From positions 59,830,001-59,894,000 of the forward strand of contig NC_135804.1 of NCBI RefSeq assembly GCF_964213995.1: DNA of 64,000 nt, written 5' to 3'. The stretch's first letter is position 1. Each line of letters starts with the position of its first letter. The notes under the pieces are model-generated. The model was not told where the DNA came from, ran no database searches, and saw nothing but the letters and a program-made list of their open reading frames with translations. Shown here piece by piece: positions 24,301 to 33,600 of this stretch. Made by a program: the position numbers and the translations under genes. This DNA comes from Mustelus asterias (taxonomy: Eukaryota).

Positions 24301-24891
24301 AAATCTCCTGCCCCTCACCTTGAACGTATGTCCTCTTGTGACTGACCCTTCAACTAACAGGAACAGCTGCTCCCTACCCATTCTGTCCATGCCCGTCATT
24401 ATCGTGTACGCCTCAATCATGTCGCCCCTCAGTCATCTCTGCTCCAACGAAAACAATCCAAGCCTATCCAACCTCCCTTCATAACTTAAATGTTCAATTT
24501 CAGGCAGCATCCTGGTGAATCTCCTCTGCACTCTCTCGAGTGCAATCGCAATCTTCCTATAATGTGGTGACAGAACTGCACACAATACTCTAGCTGTGGT
24601 CTCACCAAAATTATATACAACTCCAACATTACTTTCCTGCTTTTGTAATCTAAGTCTTGATTGATAAAGGCAAGTGAACCATATGCATTTTTCACCACCT
24701 TACTAATATGCCCTTCCAGCTCCAGAGATCTGTGGATAAACACGCCAAGGTCCCTTCGTTCCACAGAACTTCCGAGCGTCGACCATTCATTGAATGCTTC
24801 ATTATCAAATTACTCTTTCTAACGTGTATCCCCTCACACCATTCAGGGTTAAATTCCATCTGCCACTTAGCTGCCTATTTGATAATTCCAT

Positions 24892-25713
24892 TGTGGTGAT
24901 ATAAACAGGGCCAAGTTTTAAGGCTGATAAAATTGGATATCCTAAATTAAAGAATGGGGCATATTCAAATCAAACACAAACCTCAGACAGGCCAATTATA
25001 CAAATACACAAACGTGCCTGGGCCTGACCCATCAACCATCCATCAAAGGTCGTTACACTCTACTTGAGACGTAGCAGGAGATCATGGCACCTCATTGAAA
25101 TGTATCGGCCTATTGTTAGAAGCGCAGATCAAGCCAGACTTTCTGTCACCAAGAGTTCCTGCAGATAACTTATCTGATAACAAGTTCAACAACATGGAGA
25201 TGGACACTTGGGGGGGCGGACCCTGGTGTCCTGTCAGGCAGACATCAAGAAACCCACTGGGCATTGGAACCCTCTCCTGGGACCTCATTGGCCGGAAGCC
25301 AGAGATGTTTCTGGAAAGGCAAGCAGGCTGGGGGATAAAGGGGCACATTTTCAGACACACTGCAGCGAAGACTCGATAGGGGAGATGGCCGTGACCATTC
25401 GGAAGACTGACCAGAGAAGGAAGGAAGGAAGAAGCGGCCATCAAGACTCACCTTCGTGACGACGGACCAGAGGGACTCAGAGAATCGGACCTGCAGTTCA
25501 ACCAAACCACCTCTACGGGTAGTATACTTGAATCTGCTGGGGTATCCTCTTGTTTTATGTGGGTAATTTAAGGGTTAATAGTGTTATCATTAATAAACTT
25601 GTTGAAACTTTACTTGTGTTTGTCCTTTGTCCATCTTGCAAATAAGGGCACTGCGGTAAAACCTTGGAGTAAGTAAACTGGTTGAATGTATCTGAGAATT
25701 AACAGGTACAACA
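24892..25713 (+). repeat. 5' LTR (822 bp)
   Basis: TGTGGTG...ACAACA. Direct repeat of 29821-30646. AATAAA at about 25592. Confidence 0.95.
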
Positions 25714-25714
25714 G

Positions 25715-25732
25715 TGGCACCCCAGATGGGAC
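25715..25732 (+). promoter_or_regulatory. Primer binding site, tRNA-Arg(CCU)-type
   Basis: TGGCACCCCAGATGGGAC lies 1 nt after the 5' LTR. Its reverse complement GTCCCATCTGGGGTG-CCA matches the 3' end of a vertebrate tRNA-Arg-CCT as I recall it. Confidence 0.85.
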
Positions 25733-26045
25733 TTCGATAAGAAGTGATACATTGCTCCGAAGTCGAAGCTTCAACCCGGTATTCTCCGACACTCCGTCTG
25801 AGCCTGAATTAAGAGGGCAGCTGCCCCACGTGACGGCCAGTCTTAAGTGAGTGAAGGACTAATACAGATTCAACCAGTAAATTGGACCATAACGGTGTCT
25901 GTGACACAAGGTGGACAAACTGTGTAGTTAGAACTAGAACAGTCCAGGGAATTTGGGTAAAATCTACGGGAGGGAATTTAGTGAAAACCAGACCCCTTCC
26001 CCGATCCCTTACCTATACTCAAGTGACGAATCCTAAAAGGAAATA

Positions 26046-27947
26046 ATGATGGCCAGTCATGCTGAATGGGGGGACCTCTGGGATTGGGGTTCAAATGTCC
26101 AATTCCACCCATGGGTCTGCATTCTGTCACAACTGGCCGTATTAGGAATCCTACTTATGGCAGTGTACCTAACCATCCTCACACTTAAGTTCTCCAGATA
26201 GGCAGAGGAAGTTAAACGTAAATGCAGCGACCTACAGGCTGCAGTGAAAGTTTTGCACCAAGCAGGAAAAGTAAAAACAGGCCGCGCAACAGACCACTCC
26301 AAATGCCTGCACGAGATTAAAGATCTAAAAGCGCAACTCTCCATAAAAAGGGGTGTTATGTGTGCATACAGGACCGAAACAGGGGACAGTGACCCAGGGG
26401 TAGAGTTGGGGGATTTAGAAGAGGATGCCTGCCATTATGCAACAGCTAGCATCACTGCCGACTGGGGACCCCCACCTCCCTTCCCGGTAATGGAACCAAC
26501 GGCACCACCTAATTCGGCCCCCATCTGGGGAAACTCAATCTCAGCTCCTAGTCCTTTTATCATCCCAATAAGCCCAGCCACTAATCCGGTTCCTGTGCCG
26601 ATGAATCCGGTCACCACCCGATGACAGGACGGTCAGAACCACAATGTGACTTATGTAACTCCATATACCATGACACAGCTCACTGACATCGCTAAAGCGA
26701 TTGGAGTATTTGAACCCTCCGGGGATCCACATGCTCTCTTTGATCAGGTCACCCAATACCGTGTTTTAAACGGCCTACACGAGGCAGAAGAGGTTAAACT
26801 TATTCTGTTATGTTTAAGACCTGCCATCCGTTCCGCCCTACCTGAACCCCAGAACATGGCTAGGGGAACCCTACCAGAAATGAAGGTAGCCGTTCTGGCC
26901 GCCATCGGCTACAATAGGGATGACCCGGTACAAGGCTTAAACAACTGCCAACAAAAGAGAGGGGAGCACCCGACGGCCTATGCTGGCCGACTATGGAACC
27001 AATTTGTTGCGGTTTTCGGCCAATTAAATCGAGTCCAATTAAATGCACACCACTGGCCCACATGGATCCGGACCCTGATAGCACACGCCACCGAGGGGAG
27101 TCAGAAAGCCTCTGAGAATTTTGATCAAGATGATAATACACACACAGAAGCCTGGGCCATCCGCAAAATGACTCGTGTGTGGGAACCGGAAGTCAGACAA
27201 ACAGACACCCCCAAGTCCACAAAACACGGAAAGATGAACCCAATCCACACAGACCTAGCCCCAGTTTGGCTTAACGAAGGGGAAAGTGGAAACAGGGGAC
27301 AGGGAAACTCAGGGCACCCACCCCCATATATCCCTGCCAATCATCGATACAGAAAACCGCAGCCCCGCGCAGAGCCCCGATATATTCTCAACCCCAAGTA
27401 TAGGGAACAAGATAAAACCAAGCCCAGACATGCACCCCCACAAGCACAGTGTTATAACTGTGGGCATCCCAACCATTTTGCCCGGGGCTGTAGGGCACCA
27501 CCAAATTTCAGGGGACCAGCAAACACCGCACACCCATACACCCCTGCTGATCGCCGACACAGGGAACCACAAGGCTGCACAGGACATAAGCCCAACCCCC
27601 GACACCGAGAACGATATAGAGCTGAGCCCAGAGGCTCACGCCCACAAGCACAGTGTTATACCTGCGAGCAACCCAACCATTTCACCCGGAACTGTAGGGC
27701 ACCACCCAACTACCCCACACGACCATCTCAGCAGTTGCCCGACGATGGACTCCGACCCATGCCCCTTGAAGGACCAGCCCGACAAGCAGCTAAAGACCCC
27801 AGATTCCTGGCAGGCAAGCTAACCTACGTCGGGGAGCCCCATGAATGCCAGGTTCCGGCAATAAAAGACCCCAAGGGGCCATTTTTGCCAAAACAAAAGG
27901 GGGAGGAGCAAGGGGAATCAGCCAAACCCAGGCTCAGGACAGTTTAA
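26046..27947 (+). pseudogene. gag: gag with two in-frame stops, apparently fused to a short pol connection remnant
   Basis: ATG 26046 and the ORFs at 26244 and 26646 share one frame, broken only by a TAG (~26199) and a TGA (26622). Capsid-like region, two CCHC knuckles (CYNCGHPNHFARGC, CYTCEQPNHFTRNC), PTAP and PPPY motifs. Confidence 0.85.
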
Positions 27948-28115
27948 AAGTTTTTGTAGATGGGTCATCCATGGTGGAAGAGGGAAACAGGAGGACAGGA
28001 TGCGGGATATATGTGGAAGACCAAGAAAGCCAGCCCCTCGGTATACAAGGTCATGGTAGACCACAAGAAAGCCACGTGGTATCATGTGAACCAAATGAAG
28101 GCAGTCGGCTCCCAG
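27944..28115 (+). pseudogene. pol: pol remnants: RNase H N-terminus joined to integrase C-terminus
   Basis: LKVFVDGSSMVEEGNRRTGCGIY resembles the first RNase H catalytic motif. It is followed in another frame by SPSVYKVMVDHKKATWYHVNQMK, resembling an integrase C-terminal domain. No protease, RT core or integrase core is visible. Confidence 0.75.
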
Positions 28116-29124
28116 CAAAATTTTCACCAATACCATGTCACCCTGGAAGAGTCTTTGAGTCACAGGGAAGCCCCAACCCTCACCCCACAGCACCGGACCT
28201 AAACCACGGTCCACAATCTGTACCCCAGGTTATCAACCTCCACCCAGTATCCACAGGAACAGCACACGCAACCTCGGTCCCCGCCCCAATTTACAGGGCT
28301 TCAGGAATAAATCCCCGGCCCAGGGGACCCCGACGAAAAGGATGGGGAAACCGGAAACCTTACCCCCTGTGGTGCCCCTGGTACCGGGACTCCCAGAACC
28401 GTTTGACCCGGCGCTCACTACCAGAGGTGGTAATGCAGTGGGTACCTGGCAGCCAAAGCCCGCCCACATAGGTTCCCTCCACTAAGAAAGAATCAGGGCA
28501 TCACAGTCCAGATTGTAAATAGCTTTATCCGTCCACGCCATGCATCACCCAATTGAAAAAGGCTTAAGAAAGAATCAGGACATCACAGTCCAGATTGTAG
28601 GTAGCTTTCTCCGTCCACTCCACGCATTACCCAATTGAAAAGGGTTTCTTATCTGCCCACGTTAACCTGCATCATAATTTTCCGACACCCCACGGTTTGG
28701 TTGTGAGATGAAGAATCTATTGTTATACTGTGCCATAGTCCTCCAACAACAAGGACACATGCCACAGACCCAACATTTTATTTTCACGCTCTGCAAACTC
28801 CTTACCCAACTCAACCCCATCAACACTGATTGCCGACCAACCTTTCATATGACACTCTTGGGCCTTTATTATTCCTTCACTTATTTCTTTGTTTTTTTAA
28901 AAAAGAGGAGTCATATGACATTCTAGTAAAGAAAAGGAAAAGAGAATCAGATATTAATAAGAATTAACAGGTGCTACCTTGATCTTCCCCAGAATGAACT
29001 ACATACTTCCCTGTTATCTGGGACTCCTCGTCTCAGACCGAACCACAGACACCACATCAACCAAAGACCAGAAGATCAGCCTACGATAACCTGGATATAT
29101 GTGGTTCACCCCACGCCCGATGGA

Positions 29125-29520
29125 AGTACACTCATCAGAGGTCAACCTTTTGGCACCCCGTAGAAACTTTCTGGAAGGGGACTACAGAACAGTATCTAAA
29201 GAACGTAAAATCTTGCAGAATAAAATACTTAATTTAGATGCAGCAAAAGCAAGACTGAAGAAGGCAAAGGTTTCAGAGGCCCGTTCAGCAGCAGAACAGG
29301 AAATGCAAATTACACAAAGTGAATTTGATTGCCAGGCAGAGAACACAAGACTTTTGCTTGAAGGAATTAGCAGTACACATGCTCATCACCTTCATTGGCT
29401 GCGTGACAATGTTGATGCCCAGTTGACCTACTATGCTCAGTGTTACTAGTATATGGTTGATTTACAGAAGCAACTTGGAAGTTTTCCAACCACATTTTCT
29501 TCCAACAACAATCAGCCTGC
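29125..29520 (+). pseudogene. SH3GLB1: Processed (intronless) endophilin-B1 fragment: C-terminal half of the N-BAR domain plus linker start
   Basis: NLLAPRRNFLEGDYRTVSKERKILQNKILNLDAAKARLKKAK...EQEMQITQSEFDCQAENTRLLLEGISSTHAHHL...AQLTYYAQCY*YMVDLQKQLGSFPTTFSSNNNQ aligns along its length with vertebrate SH3GLB1 as recalled (NFLTPLRNFIEGDYKTIAKERKLLQNKRLDLDAAKTRLKKAK...YYAQCYQYMLDLQKQLGSFPSNYLSNNNQ). Confidence 0.93.
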
Positions 29521-29808
29521 TCGGCTTACTGTTTATTGCTTTGTTTTGTATATACCCGATTGACGTATTGTTTCTTATTGTTTCTTTGATTATTTTACTT
29601 CAGTTTGCACTGTCTATTGCTTTGTTTTGTTTATACCCGATTGATGTATTGTTTCTTATTGTTTTTTAAGAATTATTTTACATCATTTAAATTTGTTGGT
29701 ACTATTGTGGGTTAGGGATGATACCGCCAACGCTAGATACGGGATGCTTGCTTGTTGAGATGGTTTGGTGAGACTTGTGTGATCCGGTTCACTGACGCTC
29801 ATTGGATC

Positions 29809-29820
29809 AAAAGGAGGGAA
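29809..29820 (+). promoter_or_regulatory. Polypurine tract
   Basis: AAAAGGAGGGAA directly abutting the 3' LTR. Confidence 0.9.
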
Positions 29821-30646
29821 TTTGGTGATATAAACAGGGCCTAGTTTTAAGGCTGATAAAATTGGATATCCTAATTTAAAGAATTGGGCATATTGAAATC
29901 AAACACAGTCAAACCTCAAGCAGGCCAATTATACAAATGCACAAACGTGTCTGGGCCTGACCCATCAACTACCCATCAAAGGTCGTTACACTCTACTTGA
30001 GACGTAGCAGGAGATCATGGCACCTCATTGAAATGCATTGGCCTATTGTTAGAAGCGCAGATCAAGCCAGACTTTCTGTCACCAAGAGTTCCTGCAGATA
30101 ACTTATCTGATAACAAGTTCAACAACATGGAGATGGACACTTGGGGGGGCGGACCCTGGTGTCCTGTCAGGCAGACATCAAGAAACCCACTGGGTATTGG
30201 AAGCCCCTCCTGGCACCTCATTGGCCAGAAGCCAGAGAAGTTTCTGGAAAGGCAAGCAGGCTGGGGGACAAAGGGACGCATTTTCAGACACACTGCAGCG
30301 AAGACTCAACAGGGGAGACGGCCGTGACCATTCACCAGACTGACCAGAGAAGGAAGGAAGGAAGAAGCGGCCATCAAAACTCACCTTCATGACGACGGAC
30401 CAGAGGGACTCAGAGAATCGGACCTGCAGTTCAACCAAACCATCTTTACAGGTGGTATACTTGAATCTGCTGGGGTATCCTCTTGTTTTATGTGGGTAAT
30501 TTAAGGGTTAATAGTGTTATTATTAATAAACTTGTTGAACCTCCACTTGTGTTTGTCCTTCGTCCAACTTGCAAATAAGGGCACCGGGGTAAAACCTTGG
30601 AGTGAGTAAACTGGTTGAAAGTATCTGAGAATTAACAGGTACAACA
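29821..30646 (+). repeat. 3' LTR (826 bp)
   Basis: Highly similar to the 5' LTR with scattered substitutions and small indels; the initial TG reads TT. Confidence 0.95.
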
Positions 30647-33600
30647 CCATCTATATCTTCTTATAGGTAGTTAGCCTTGCTGCTAACCACCTGGCAAATT
30701 TTTGTGTCATCTGCAAACTTATTAATGCTTCCCCACGAAGTCATCTATGCCATTTCCATAAAGGACAGATAATATAGGACCCAACACGGATCCCTGTGGT
30801 ATGCAAATCGACTATGGCTTCCAGTCACTAAAGCAGCCTTCTGCCATCTCTCTCTCATACAATAGAACCAATTCTGAATCCACTTTGTCAAATTGTCCTG
30901 TATCCCATGTGCATTTACCTTCTTTATAAGTCTCCTATATGGAACATTATCAAAAGCTTTGCTAAAAACCATTTTAACTACTCTCGACAGCACTACCCAC
31001 GTACACACACCTGGTAACGGCCTCAAAAAATTCAAACAACTTTGTTAGGCATGATTCCCCCCCCCCCCCCCCCCCCCCCCCCGCTGATGAAGCAACAATG
31101 ACTATCCAAGTGGATATAGATTCTCTCCTTCAGAATTTTCTCCAAAGGTTTCCCTTTCAATGACGTAAGACACACTGACCTGTACTTCTTTGCTTTATCT
31201 CAGCAACCCTTCTTAAATAGTGGAACCGCATTCGCTGTTCTCCAGTCATCTGGCAACTCCCCCGTGGCCAGAAAGGAATTGAAAATTTGGGTCAGAATTC
31301 TTGTAATCTCCTCCCCTGTCTCCCAGTGCAGCCTAGGGCACACTCCATCGGGACCTGGAGATTCATTCTCTTTTAAGGCTGCCAACACTTCCAATACCTG
31401 GTCCTTCCCTATGTCAATTTGCTCAAGAACCTTACAGTCCCTTTTCCTCAATCCCATACCATCGTCCTCATTGTCTTGGGTGAAAGCGGATTCATTCAAA
31501 CTCTACCAATGTCCTCTGGTGCCACCTACGGATTGCCCTCTTGGTCCCTAATGGGCCCCACTCTTTCCCTCGTTAACATCTTCCCATTGATATTATTAGA
31601 GGATATCTTGAAATTTTCTCTACTTTTACCAGACCGAAATTTCCCATACCCCCTCTCTGCTTTCCTAATCGCTTCCTTCAGCTCCAACCTGCACTTCCTA
31701 TACCTCACTAATGTTTCCACTGATTTGCTCCCCTTCTACTTTATAACAAGGCTTTCTTTTCCTTCTCATTGTATTGTGAATATCTCTGGTCATCCATGGC
31801 TCTCTTGGCTTGTTATGCCTTCCTATCACCCTAGAGGGAACATGCAGGACTTGCACCCTCCCCATTTCATGTTTGAATGCCCCCCCCCCCCCCCACCCGC
31901 CCGCCCGCCACCTCCCCCCCCCCCCCCCCCCCCCGCCCGCCCCCACGCCCTCCCCCACCCCATCCCACTGCTCTTCTGAAGATTTTGTCATTAGTAGCTG
32001 TTCCCAGTCTACCTTGGCCAGATCCTGAACTATTTTACTAAAATCCGCTCTCCCCAATCTAAAGCCTTTTTTGCAGCTTGTCTATTTCCTTGTCCATAAC
32101 AAGTTTGAATTGTACCATGTTGTGACCGCTATCACTAAAATGCTCCCCCAACAGTTCCTCAACCTCTTGTTCGGCTTTAGTCCACATAATTGGGTCTAGC
32201 ATAGATCCTTCCCTTGTTGGACCCTCTACATATTGATCTGCAAAGTTCTCCTGCACATATTTCAGGTAATCTATTCCATCCAAGCCTTCAACTCTATGTA
32301 TATTCCATTTAATGTTGGGAAAGTTAAAATCACCGAATATAATAACCATATTGATATTGTTTTTACACACATCCGCAACTTGAGCACATATTTGCTCCTC
32401 AATATCCCTCTGACTATCTGGGGGTCTATAATAAAGACCTAACAATGTGGCTGTCCCTGTTCCATTCTTAAGCTCTATCCATAAAGTTTCATCAGATCCC
32501 CTTTCCAAAATTGATTCCCTTCCAAAATTGATTCCTTCATTAATAATGCAATGCCTCCTCCTCTTTTATCTCCTCCCCTGTCCTGTCTGAAGATTCTATA
32601 TCCCAGATGTTGAGTTGCCAATCATGCCCTTCCTTCAACCATGTCCCTGTGATGCCCACTATATCACATTACGTATGTGCCTCTCAACTCAACCGAATCA
32701 AACGATTCAAGAACAGCTACTTTCCTGCTGCCATCAGACCTTTGAATGGGGCCTATCTCATATTGAGTTGATCATTAGCTACATCCTCGCCATGGCTGTA
32801 ACACTACATTCTGTACCCTCTCCTTTCCTTCTCTATGTACGGTATGCTTTACTTGTATAGCATGCAACAAACAATACTTTTCACTGTATACTAATACATA
32901 TGACAATAATAAATCAAACCAAAATTGTCACCTTCAATTCACCCGTTTTACCTGCAATTCTCCTGGCGTTAAAGTAGAGGCCATCCAGCCTGGCCTTACT
33001 CCCTTGAAACTTAATACAGCTGCAATCCTTCTGACCTGATTGTTTTACTGTATGATTTGGTGCCCTTACTCTGTGCTCCCCCCCCCCCGCCCCGCCCCCC
33101 GCGCGCCCTTACCCTCGCCACATTAATTCAAACTCCGCCCAACAGCACTGGCAAGAATGTTAGTTGCAGTCTGATTCAGATACAGAACGCCCGCTTGTTC
33201 AGGTCCCACCTTCCCCAGAAATTGTCCCAGTGATCCACCAGTCTAAACCCCTCCTTCTGCACCAACTCTTAAGCCACGCATTAATCTGCAGCATCCTACT
33301 ATTTCTGTGTTCGCTACAACGTGGCATTCGGATTTCAACCCGAGAGGTCCTGCTTTTTAATCTAATGCCTAACTGCCTGAATACTTGATGCAAGACCTCA
33401 CCCATCTTTCTATCATTGGTACCAATATGTACCATGACCTCTGCCTAATCACCCTACCCCTTCAAGATACACTGCAGTCATTCAGTAACATCACGGACCC
33501 TAGCACGAGGGAGGCCACCTATCATTCTGGAGTCACGTTGATGGACACAGTAGCGCCTATCTCTCACCCGATTATAGAATCCCCTATTACCATTGCGCTG

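What the first reader, a model, noticed from the sequence alone, without database searches (positions are those of the whole stretch)
28975..29563. Cargo is in frame with an env-like leader behind a splice acceptor (env-onc-style fusion ORF)
Seen: the pyrimidine-rich acceptor ctaccttgatcttccccAG (AG at 28991-28992) is followed by an ATG at 28994. The frame reads MNYILPCYLGLLVSDRTTDTTSTKDQKISLR*PGYMWFTPRPMEVHSSEV, runs directly into the endophilin sequence, and ends at TGA 29561-29563 (189 codons). It has only two point stops (TAA 29087; TAG 29447 where endophilin has Gln) and no frameshift. A candidate major donor AA|GTGAGT sits at 25847 in the leader. Inference: the ancestral element expressed a leader-BAR fusion from the spliced env mRNA, as in v-sis or v-mpl. 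The ORF track hides this because of the first stop.
Basis: partly seen in the sequence, partly recalled or inferred. Interest (0 to 1): 0.82.

Follow-up and report, generated by a model that had tools for sequence, protein, structure and literature searches.

The report
Shark retrovirus carrying captured endophilin fragment
An endogenous retrovirus in a shark genome lost most of its envelope gene, took up a piece of the host's endophilin-B1 messenger RNA in frame with the envelope start and multiplied to over a hundred copies, but the fused protein shows no sign of having been useful.

Summary
The fusion frame is real. Window 24892-30646 is a decayed provirus. 28994-29114 is env codons 1-40 of the parent family (109-115 of 120 nt identical in 8 of 8 env-bearing copies). 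29115-29126 comes from the env tail. 29127-29527 is spliced host SH3GLB1 mRNA (five exons, residues 133-267). Both stops are private (1 of 79, 1 of 66 copies); 40 of 77 copies read open. Correction: the window has a private 1-nt gap near 29522, so its end at 29563 is not the family's.

Likely history: env-bearing element (97 junctions), env-deleted form (29), clean mRNA insertion (138). A relative of the parent env folds like paramyxovirus F (lokiretrovirus type). Unexpectedly, the env-less lineage moved the env transmembrane segment in frame into the Gag N-terminus (196 junctions).

Against a v-onc role: shared variants look neutral (18 N:6 S versus 191:57, p=0.8), while env shows purifying selection (p=0.008); power is modest. 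The splice joint was not seen in four contig sets. Best reading: a passenger retrocopy on an env-less retrotransposon.

The parts
24892..25713 (+). 5' LTR; a 4-bp target-site duplication flanks the provirus (24888-24891 and 30647-30650)
   Evidence: Direct repeat. LTR pair differs at 43 of 800 sites. 4-bp duplication in the window and in 4 of 4 other copies where both LTR ends were located (6 tried).
25715..25732 (+). Primer-binding site (tRNA-Arg type, identity recalled)
   Evidence: Directly after the LTR; conserved in copies, with a different 3' part in env-bearing copies.
25847..25852 (+). Candidate major splice donor
   Evidence: GTGAGT in 23 of 24 copies where the region was found, including 4 of 4 env-bearing copies. 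Use not shown.
26049..27947 (+). gag with two CCHC knuckles; broken in the window (stops at codons 51 and 192, ~160-nt deletion near 26190-26200)
   Evidence: Pfam zf-CCHC.
26067..26199 (+). Env membrane-proximal and transmembrane segment inside the Gag N-terminus, replacing about parent Gag residues 9-96, in frame at both ends
   Evidence: 89-92% identical to the env TM region. In 20 of 20 cargo copies and 5 of 5 env-deleted copies with the same linker; 0 of 4 env-bearing copies. 196 junction matches genome-wide.
27797..28202 (+). pol remnants (tether end/RNase H start joined to integrase C-terminus); most of pol deleted
   Evidence: Matches interior parts of pol-bearing copies; Pfam on sister copies.
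28975..28992 (+). Pyrimidine tract and AG: env splice-acceptor candidate
   Evidence: AG in 29 of 30 best copies and 8 of 8 env-bearing copies.
28994..29114 (+). env codons 1-40 (weak hydrophobic stretch at residues 4-14); private stop at 29087
   Evidence: 109-115 of 120 nt identical in 8 of 8 env-bearing copies, which continue into a ~2-kb env.
29115..29126 (+). 12-nt linker from the env tail, scar of a ~1.83-kb env deletion, read in another frame
   Evidence: Matches env ~1950 nt downstream of the ATG; same join in cargo-less copies.
29127..29527 (+). Spliced SH3GLB1 (endophilin B1) mRNA piece, host residues 133-267, exon joins after 29197, 29290, 29380 and 29480; private stop at 29447 and 1-nt gap near 29522
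   Evidence: Five host exons at G000:C8:126.15-126.17 Mb, 94-97% identical; the alternative exon of longer isoforms is skipped.
29528..29820 (+). Viral 3' untranslated region with 81-nt repeat and polypurine tract (29809-29820)
   Evidence: Shared with env-bearing copies; repeat D8.
29821..30646 (+). 3' LTR

Best explanation
An env-bearing endogenous retrovirus with a paramyxovirus-F-type env became an intracellular retrotransposon: it deleted env between codon 40 and the tail, and swapped its Gag matrix region for the env transmembrane segment. During one reverse transcription the enzyme switched onto a co-packaged spliced endophilin-B1 mRNA and back, inserting 414 nt into the env remnant with no viral base lost. 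The insert landed in the env frame behind the inherited donor, acceptor and ATG, so intact copies could make a 160-200-residue leader-BAR peptide. That lineage then amplified, trimming the 3' end twice. The cargo most likely rode along as a passenger. Shown: anatomy, sources, junctions, copy numbers, neutral variant pattern. Inferred: template switching, order of events, splicing, membrane-anchored Gag.
For: The cargo spans four exon joins. Joining the viral sides of the two cargo junctions gives exactly the cargo-less form, seen in 14 of 14 fetched loci plus L067; 29 such junctions genome-wide. One cargo-less copy groups with env-bearing copies (support 98), and their four usable LTR pairs differ by 2.6-4.5% against 0.4-3.7% for the two large cargo subfamilies. 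Non-CpG variants shared by 4 or more copies: 18 N:6 S versus singletons 191:57, p=0.80; against the host gene 13:5 versus 161:48, p=0.58. Env control: 21:22 versus 90:34, p=0.008; contrast p=0.043. Indels in the cargo: 18 frameshifting, 5 in frame. Published precedent for sense, partial, in-frame LTR-borne retrocopies that keep transposing (PMC5131818, passages).
Against: Power is modest: only 24 shared variants, the 95% bound excludes only dN/dS below about 0.34, and the gag (p=0.31) and RNase H/integrase (p=0.27) controls also missed significance. The frame is open at the 5' junction (1 in 3) and a stop forms exactly at the 3' junction in 47 of 49 copies of the longest subfamily (47 of 445 possible end points, about 0.11). 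The youngest well-supported clade (43 rows, support 99) is all cargo-bearing, with 0 of 12 cargo-less rows. No microhomology is evident at either cargo junction, which template switching usually shows.
Confidence: 0.62

Rival explanations
1. The fusion protein helped the element spread (env-onc-like accessory gene). The BAR helix-2/helix-3 hairpin could bind or block host endophilin B1, or help a membrane-anchored Gag bud on internal membranes.
For: In frame at the start with a clean stop at the end (joint chance about 0.04, post hoc). Cargo junctions outnumber the cargo-less form 138 to 29 and make up the whole youngest clade. The two later subfamily deletions trim only the 3' end. One CpG stop site is hit in 11 copies against 0-7 at most other CpG sites, which could mean the host removes a harmful product. 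Crocodilian ERV captures show purifying selection (PMC4299795, passages).
Against: No purifying selection detected. One founder event explains the counts. The piece lacks residues 1-132 (amphipathic helix and helix 1; boundaries recalled) and SH3. If residues 4-14 act as a signal peptide, the piece would enter the ER lumen, away from cytosolic partners.
Confidence: 0.2
2. The insert mattered as RNA, not protein: host-like sequence or added length aided stability, export or escape from silencing, or copies feed small RNAs against SH3GLB1.
For: Every large young subfamily keeps at least 320 nt of the cargo while the protein evolves neutrally.
Against: Sampling was by cargo match. The cargo-less form also transposed (29 junctions). 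No small-RNA data.
Confidence: 0.1
3. Different order: the cargo-less env-deleted copies are later recombinants between cargo-bearing and env-bearing genomes across the shared 12-nt linker, not the precursor.
For: Cargo-less copies are scattered among older cargo-bearing copies in the tree (8 label changes for 12 rows) and carry the same TM-Gag.
Against: The linker itself requires the env deletion. One cargo-less copy is sister to the env-bearing group, and their LTRs are older than most cargo copies. Recombination also explains the scatter under the simpler order. No clade test with an outside root was run.
Confidence: 0.12

Closest known systems
LTR-mediated retrocopies (Tan et al. 2016, PMC5131818; passages read)
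   Same: Partial, sense-strand, intronless host mRNA inside an LTR element, in frame, re-transposed as a non-autonomous element.
   Different: Vertebrate retrovirus with well over 100 junction matches; fused to env behind its splice acceptor; no microsimilarity evident and no viral base lost.
CrocERV31 nectin3 and CrocERV29 KIT-ligand captures (Chong et al. 2014, PMC4299795; passages read)
   Same: Host mRNA captured at the env position of an ERV and multiplied.
   Different: Those are near-complete proteins in 6-9 copies under purifying selection. This is an internal fragment fused to env codons 1-40, with neutral variation.
env-onc fusions v-sis and v-mpl (recalled)
   Same: env N-terminus fused in frame to spliced cellular sequence in a defective genome.
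   Different: Their cargoes act in the secretory pathway and transform cells. Here the cargo is a truncated cytosolic BAR piece with no sign of selection.
Lokiretroviruses (Wang and Han 2021, PMC7947760; parts 1-2 of 4, passages and supplement rows read)
   Same: gag-pol-env, tether plus RNase H, F-like env with basic cleavage site, heptads and TM.
   Different: Their supplement rows list 0 for the six cartilaginous-fish genomes screened (column meaning inferred from the Fig. 1 legend). RT and integrase placement were not tested here.
IAP versus IAPE (env loss: PMC10536682, passages; Gag retargeting to the ER: recalled)
   Same: Env loss accompanied by a new hydrophobic Gag N-terminus and high copy number.
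   Different: Here the new N-terminus is the element's own env transmembrane segment, moved by recombination at an 8-nt microhomology.

Membership tests
LTR-mediated retrocopy / ERV gene capture | Intronless host mRNA sequence between two LTRs with target-site duplication | tested here: met
LTR-mediated retrocopy / ERV gene capture | Further transposition of the chimera | tested here: met
   138 junction matches, 0 in reversed control; 127 loci fall in 93 flank groups, cargo-less loci included
LTR-mediated retrocopy / ERV gene capture | Microsimilarity at the switch points | tested here: not met
   None evident by eye at either junction; PMC5131818 also reports junctions without it
env-onc fusion (v-sis/v-mpl type) | Env N-terminus in frame with captured sequence | tested here: met
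env-onc fusion (v-sis/v-mpl type) | Expressed from the spliced env mRNA | tested here: inconclusive
   Signals conserved; no 25846-28993 joint among 8 joints listed for 4 contig sets
env-onc fusion (v-sis/v-mpl type) | Functional signal peptide | tested here: inconclusive
   Kyte-Doolittle 11-residue maximum 2.03 at residues 4-14, like env relative P0126 (2.04), but 19-residue maximum 0.38; SignalP not available
env-onc fusion (v-sis/v-mpl type) | Product under selection | tested here: not met
   modest power
env-onc fusion (v-sis/v-mpl type) | Transforming activity | not testable with these tools
   None
Lokiretrovirus | Env related to paramyxo/pneumovirus F | tested here: met
   Env stretch matches P0126 (37%, E 1e-41), whose model (pLDDT 63) hits RSV F and hPIV3 F at E 1e-9 to 1e-8; indirect. 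Pfam PF00523 not hit
Lokiretrovirus | Basic cleavage site, fusion peptide, coiled coil, TM | tested here: met
   R-x-R-R followed by a hydrophobic stretch at about codon 220; C-terminal hydrophobic segment
Lokiretrovirus | Tether plus second RNase H | tested here: met
   RT_RNaseH and RNase_H in one sister-copy frame
Lokiretrovirus | RT falls in the loki clade | not tested
   No reference set; best PDB hits are foamy RT, E 7e-36 versus 3e-20 for MLV
Lokiretrovirus | Integrase close to CGIN1 | tested here: inconclusive
   Atlas gave only generic integrase clusters

The most novel reading that the evidence does not exclude
A loki-type shark retrovirus turned into an intracellular retrotransposon by anchoring Gag with its own env transmembrane helix, then used the vacated env transcript to express a captured BAR hairpin that helped it bud on internal membranes or blunted host endophilin-B1 autophagy. 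This would be a host membrane-shaping module recruited as an accessory gene in the germline.
Probability: 0.15. Interest if true: 0.85.

Novelty: new variant of a known kind. Interest (0 to 1): 0.55.

Why it matters
All stages of a retroviral gene capture survive side by side in one genome (env-bearing, env-deleted, cargo-bearing), at base resolution and in numbers large enough to test for selection. It is a caution that an env-onc architecture plus high copy number need not mean function. Two side results may matter more: an F-type env family in cartilaginous fish, where the lokiretrovirus screen listed none, and an in-frame move of the env transmembrane segment into Gag that tracks env loss, an apparent independent parallel to IAP retargeting. 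I found no report of this element in five searches of the open library; most subscription papers are not held.

Tried and rejected
RNA evidence: no listed run held half of the sampled words. Four contig sets (kind unrecorded or guessed) gave 8 joints, none from 25846 to 28993. Depth rises near the acceptor in three of the four, but contig depth cannot show splicing and I give it no weight. One set has a contig across the leader-cargo junction, but its flat cover looks like DNA; another has the cargo-less join.

Database search with the 45-residue leader found nothing. The env stretch found nothing in the word-indexed database, Pfam or PDB by sequence; its single-sequence model was unusable (pLDDT 35). 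Atlas searches gave generic hits.

An in-frame ATG in the window's U5 is private; the aligned codon is not ATG in any of the 26 other copies read there, so an upstream leader exon from U5 was rejected. The stop at codon 105 is scattered over the tree, apart from one pair, so it is not one replicating stop-bearing lineage. Twenty-six fetched loci share one flank and count as one insertion.

Rows left out: L015, L016, L118 and L139 from the variant counts (duplicates or truncated); 10 long-branch or mis-cut rows from the second tree; 2 of 14 new cargo-less loci failed the alignment cut-off. No complex prediction was run, since a pass would follow from solved BAR dimers. A recalled paper on endophilins and MLV Gag is not held. 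Two look-ups of earlier scan findings were empty.

Full report
OBSERVATION. The acceptor AG (28991-28992), ATG (28994), the 189-codon frame with stops at codons 32 and 152, and the donor GTGAGT (25847) are as described. Residues 45-176 match endophilin B1; the nearest database proteins are shark endophilin B1. The stretch lies in a provirus: LTRs 24892-25713 and 29821-30646 differing at 43 of 800 sites, a 4-bp target duplication, a primer-binding site, a broken gag and pol remnants.

CARGO. The host gene is at G000:C8:126.15-126.17 Mb; its exons match P0085, labelled Mustelus asterias, at 91-100%, so the host is probably a houndshark. The cargo joins five exons without introns and skips the alternative exon of longer isoforms, so it came from spliced mRNA. 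In 85 aligned copies it starts at host residue 132-134 in all but one and is 94-99% identical to the host. It ends at residue 269-271 (55 copies), 264-267 (13, the window's type), 250 (2) or 239 (15). It covers the distal two thirds of the BAR domain, without the amphipathic helix, helix 1 or SH3 (helix boundaries recalled).

FRAME. Junction spacing is unchanged in 83 of 84 copies. The leader is in frame with the cargo in 69 of 77, and 40 of 77 read open to the subfamily's end (22 of 52, 4 of 8, 12 of 15, 2 of 2). The window's stops occur in 1 of 79 and 1 of 66 copies. The window also has a private 1-nt gap near 29522, so its end at 29563 is not ancestral. In the longest subfamily a stop is formed by the last host base and the first two viral bases in 47 of 49 copies; 47 of 445 possible end points would do that.

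LEADER. Of 20 loci fetched by integrase similarity, 8 share the window's sequence to 29114 and then carry about 2 kb of other sequence before the same 3' UTR. The first 120 nt from the ATG are 109-115 identical. The continuation has a basic cleavage motif, a hydrophobic peptide, heptads, a cysteine-rich region and a TM segment. Sequence searches of Pfam and PDB were blank. A full HMMER scan found 35 relatives; a model of full-length relative P0126 (37% identical, pLDDT 63) matched RSV and hPIV3 fusion proteins at E 1e-9 to 1e-8. With the tether-plus-RNase H pol and foamy-like RT, this fits lokiretroviruses (PMC7947760, parts 1-2 of 4 read). That paper's supplement rows list 0 for six cartilaginous-fish genomes (file cut when stored), and I ran no RT tree, so membership is open. 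The donor is kept in 23 of 24 copies, including 4 of 4 env-bearing ones, and the acceptor in 8 of 8 env-bearing ones. They are inherited env signals and do not show selection for the fusion. A signal peptide is possible but weak.

HISTORY. The 12-nt linker matches the env tail about 1950 nt downstream of the ATG. Copies exist with leader and linker running straight on into the env tail: 29 junction matches, confirmed in 14 of 14 fetched. The cargo sits exactly at that point with no viral base lost or repeated. Genome-wide counts at one mismatch: 97 env-retaining, 29 env-deleted, 138 cargo-bearing, reversed controls 0. The 138 probably include one insertion duplicated on at least 26 loci. LTR pairs differ by 2.9-5.1% in 4 env-bearing copies, 2.6-4.5% in 4 env-deleted, 3.2-5.4% in 3 of the window's type, and 0.4-3.7% in 16 of the two large subfamilies (4 of 28 and 4 of 7 gave no usable pair). 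Trees are star-like. Env-bearing rows form one group (100/100), and a 43-row clade with support 99 is entirely cargo-bearing (FastTree, 10 rows dropped). No rooted clade test was run, so the order rests mainly on the junction logic.

GAG. The gag start carries 130 nt that are 89-92% identical to the env membrane-proximal and TM region. It replaces about residues 9-96 of the parent Gag at an 8-nt microhomology and is in frame at both ends; 11 of 25 copies read open beyond codon 480. It is in 20 of 20 cargo copies, 5 of 5 env-deleted copies with the same linker and 0 of 4 env-bearing copies, with 196 junction matches. I infer a membrane-anchored Gag suited to intracellular budding, by analogy with IAP (env loss: PMC10536682 passages; Gag retargeting recalled). 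This offers a reason for the amplification that does not need the cargo.

SELECTION. Against the host cDNA in 81 copies, non-CpG singletons are 153 N + 8 stop: 48 S and alleles in 4 or more copies 13: 5 (p=0.58). Over the whole frame in 77 copies: 191:57 versus 18:6 (p=0.80). The env control in 8 copies gives 90:34 versus 21:22 (p=0.008, threshold 2 copies); gag (p=0.31) and RNase H/integrase (p=0.27) lean the same way without significance. The fusion-env contrast is p=0.043, and the data exclude only dN/dS below about 0.34. Cargo indels: 18 frameshifting, 5 in frame. In favour of function remain the in-frame start, the clean stop, and the all-cargo youngest clade, each traceable to a single founder.

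EXPRESSION. Not shown. Four contig sets gave no donor-acceptor joint; contigs show presence, not absence.

COMPARISON. It works like an LTR-mediated retrocopy (PMC5131818, passages) and resembles crocodilian ERV captures (PMC4299795, passages), which differ in being near-complete and selected. It has the architecture of v-sis and v-mpl (recalled) but fails the selection test and is not filed as a v-onc. Passages of PMC12440569, PMC13524379 and bioRxiv 2024.03.25.586437 served only for loki context; bioRxiv supplements were not seen. Searches listed no report of this element; the 12 of 47 papers listed hold neither endophilin-B1 term.

VERDICT. Observation mostly right and a true family feature; env origin shown; v-onc-like function unsupported. 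New variant of a known kind, interest 0.55. Functional accessory gene about 0.2; the full novel reading 0.15.

Noticed in passing
window 26067-26199: The env transmembrane segment sits in frame in the Gag N-terminus of the env-less lineage, replacing the matrix region; 196 junction matches. The env piece ends at the same env site as the 12-nt linker. Possibly more novel than the finding itself.
   Followed up: partly
L055-L058, L064, L065, L068, L069; P0126, P0135, P0142, P0146: Paramyxovirus-F-type env family with relatives labelled as several sharks and two frogs, although the lokiretrovirus screen listed none in cartilaginous fish.
   Followed up: partly
window 25715-25732: Primer-binding site differs between env-bearing and env-less lineages, and two variants alternate among env-less copies, as expected if different tRNA primers were copied.
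   Followed up: no
L033, L034, L043, L078-L100 and others: One insertion with an expanded 60-nt tandem repeat is duplicated as DNA on at least 26 loci, mostly on small contigs, suggesting a megasatellite or segmental array.
   Followed up: partly
fusion frame codon 105 (about window 29306): A CpG stop recurs in 11 copies, more than at most other CpG sites (0-7); unexplained.
   Followed up: partly
about 24 nt upstream of the donor (near window 25821): 15 of 20 cargo copies, but not the window or the env-bearing copies, have an ATG that would be in frame with the env ATG after splicing.
   Followed up: no
window 28955-28972 and 25693-25708: A 12-nt motif just upstream of the acceptor recurs at the LTR end and offers a second AG at 28969-28970.
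   Followed up: no
window 28483-28646; 27379-27709: An 82-nt tandem duplication (single in most copies) and a duplicated zinc-knuckle block.
   Followed up: no
L059, L061-L063; L070-L073: Integrase-bearing copies that end in LTR sequence with no env region, and a sister family about 65% identical in integrase with its own env.
   Followed up: no
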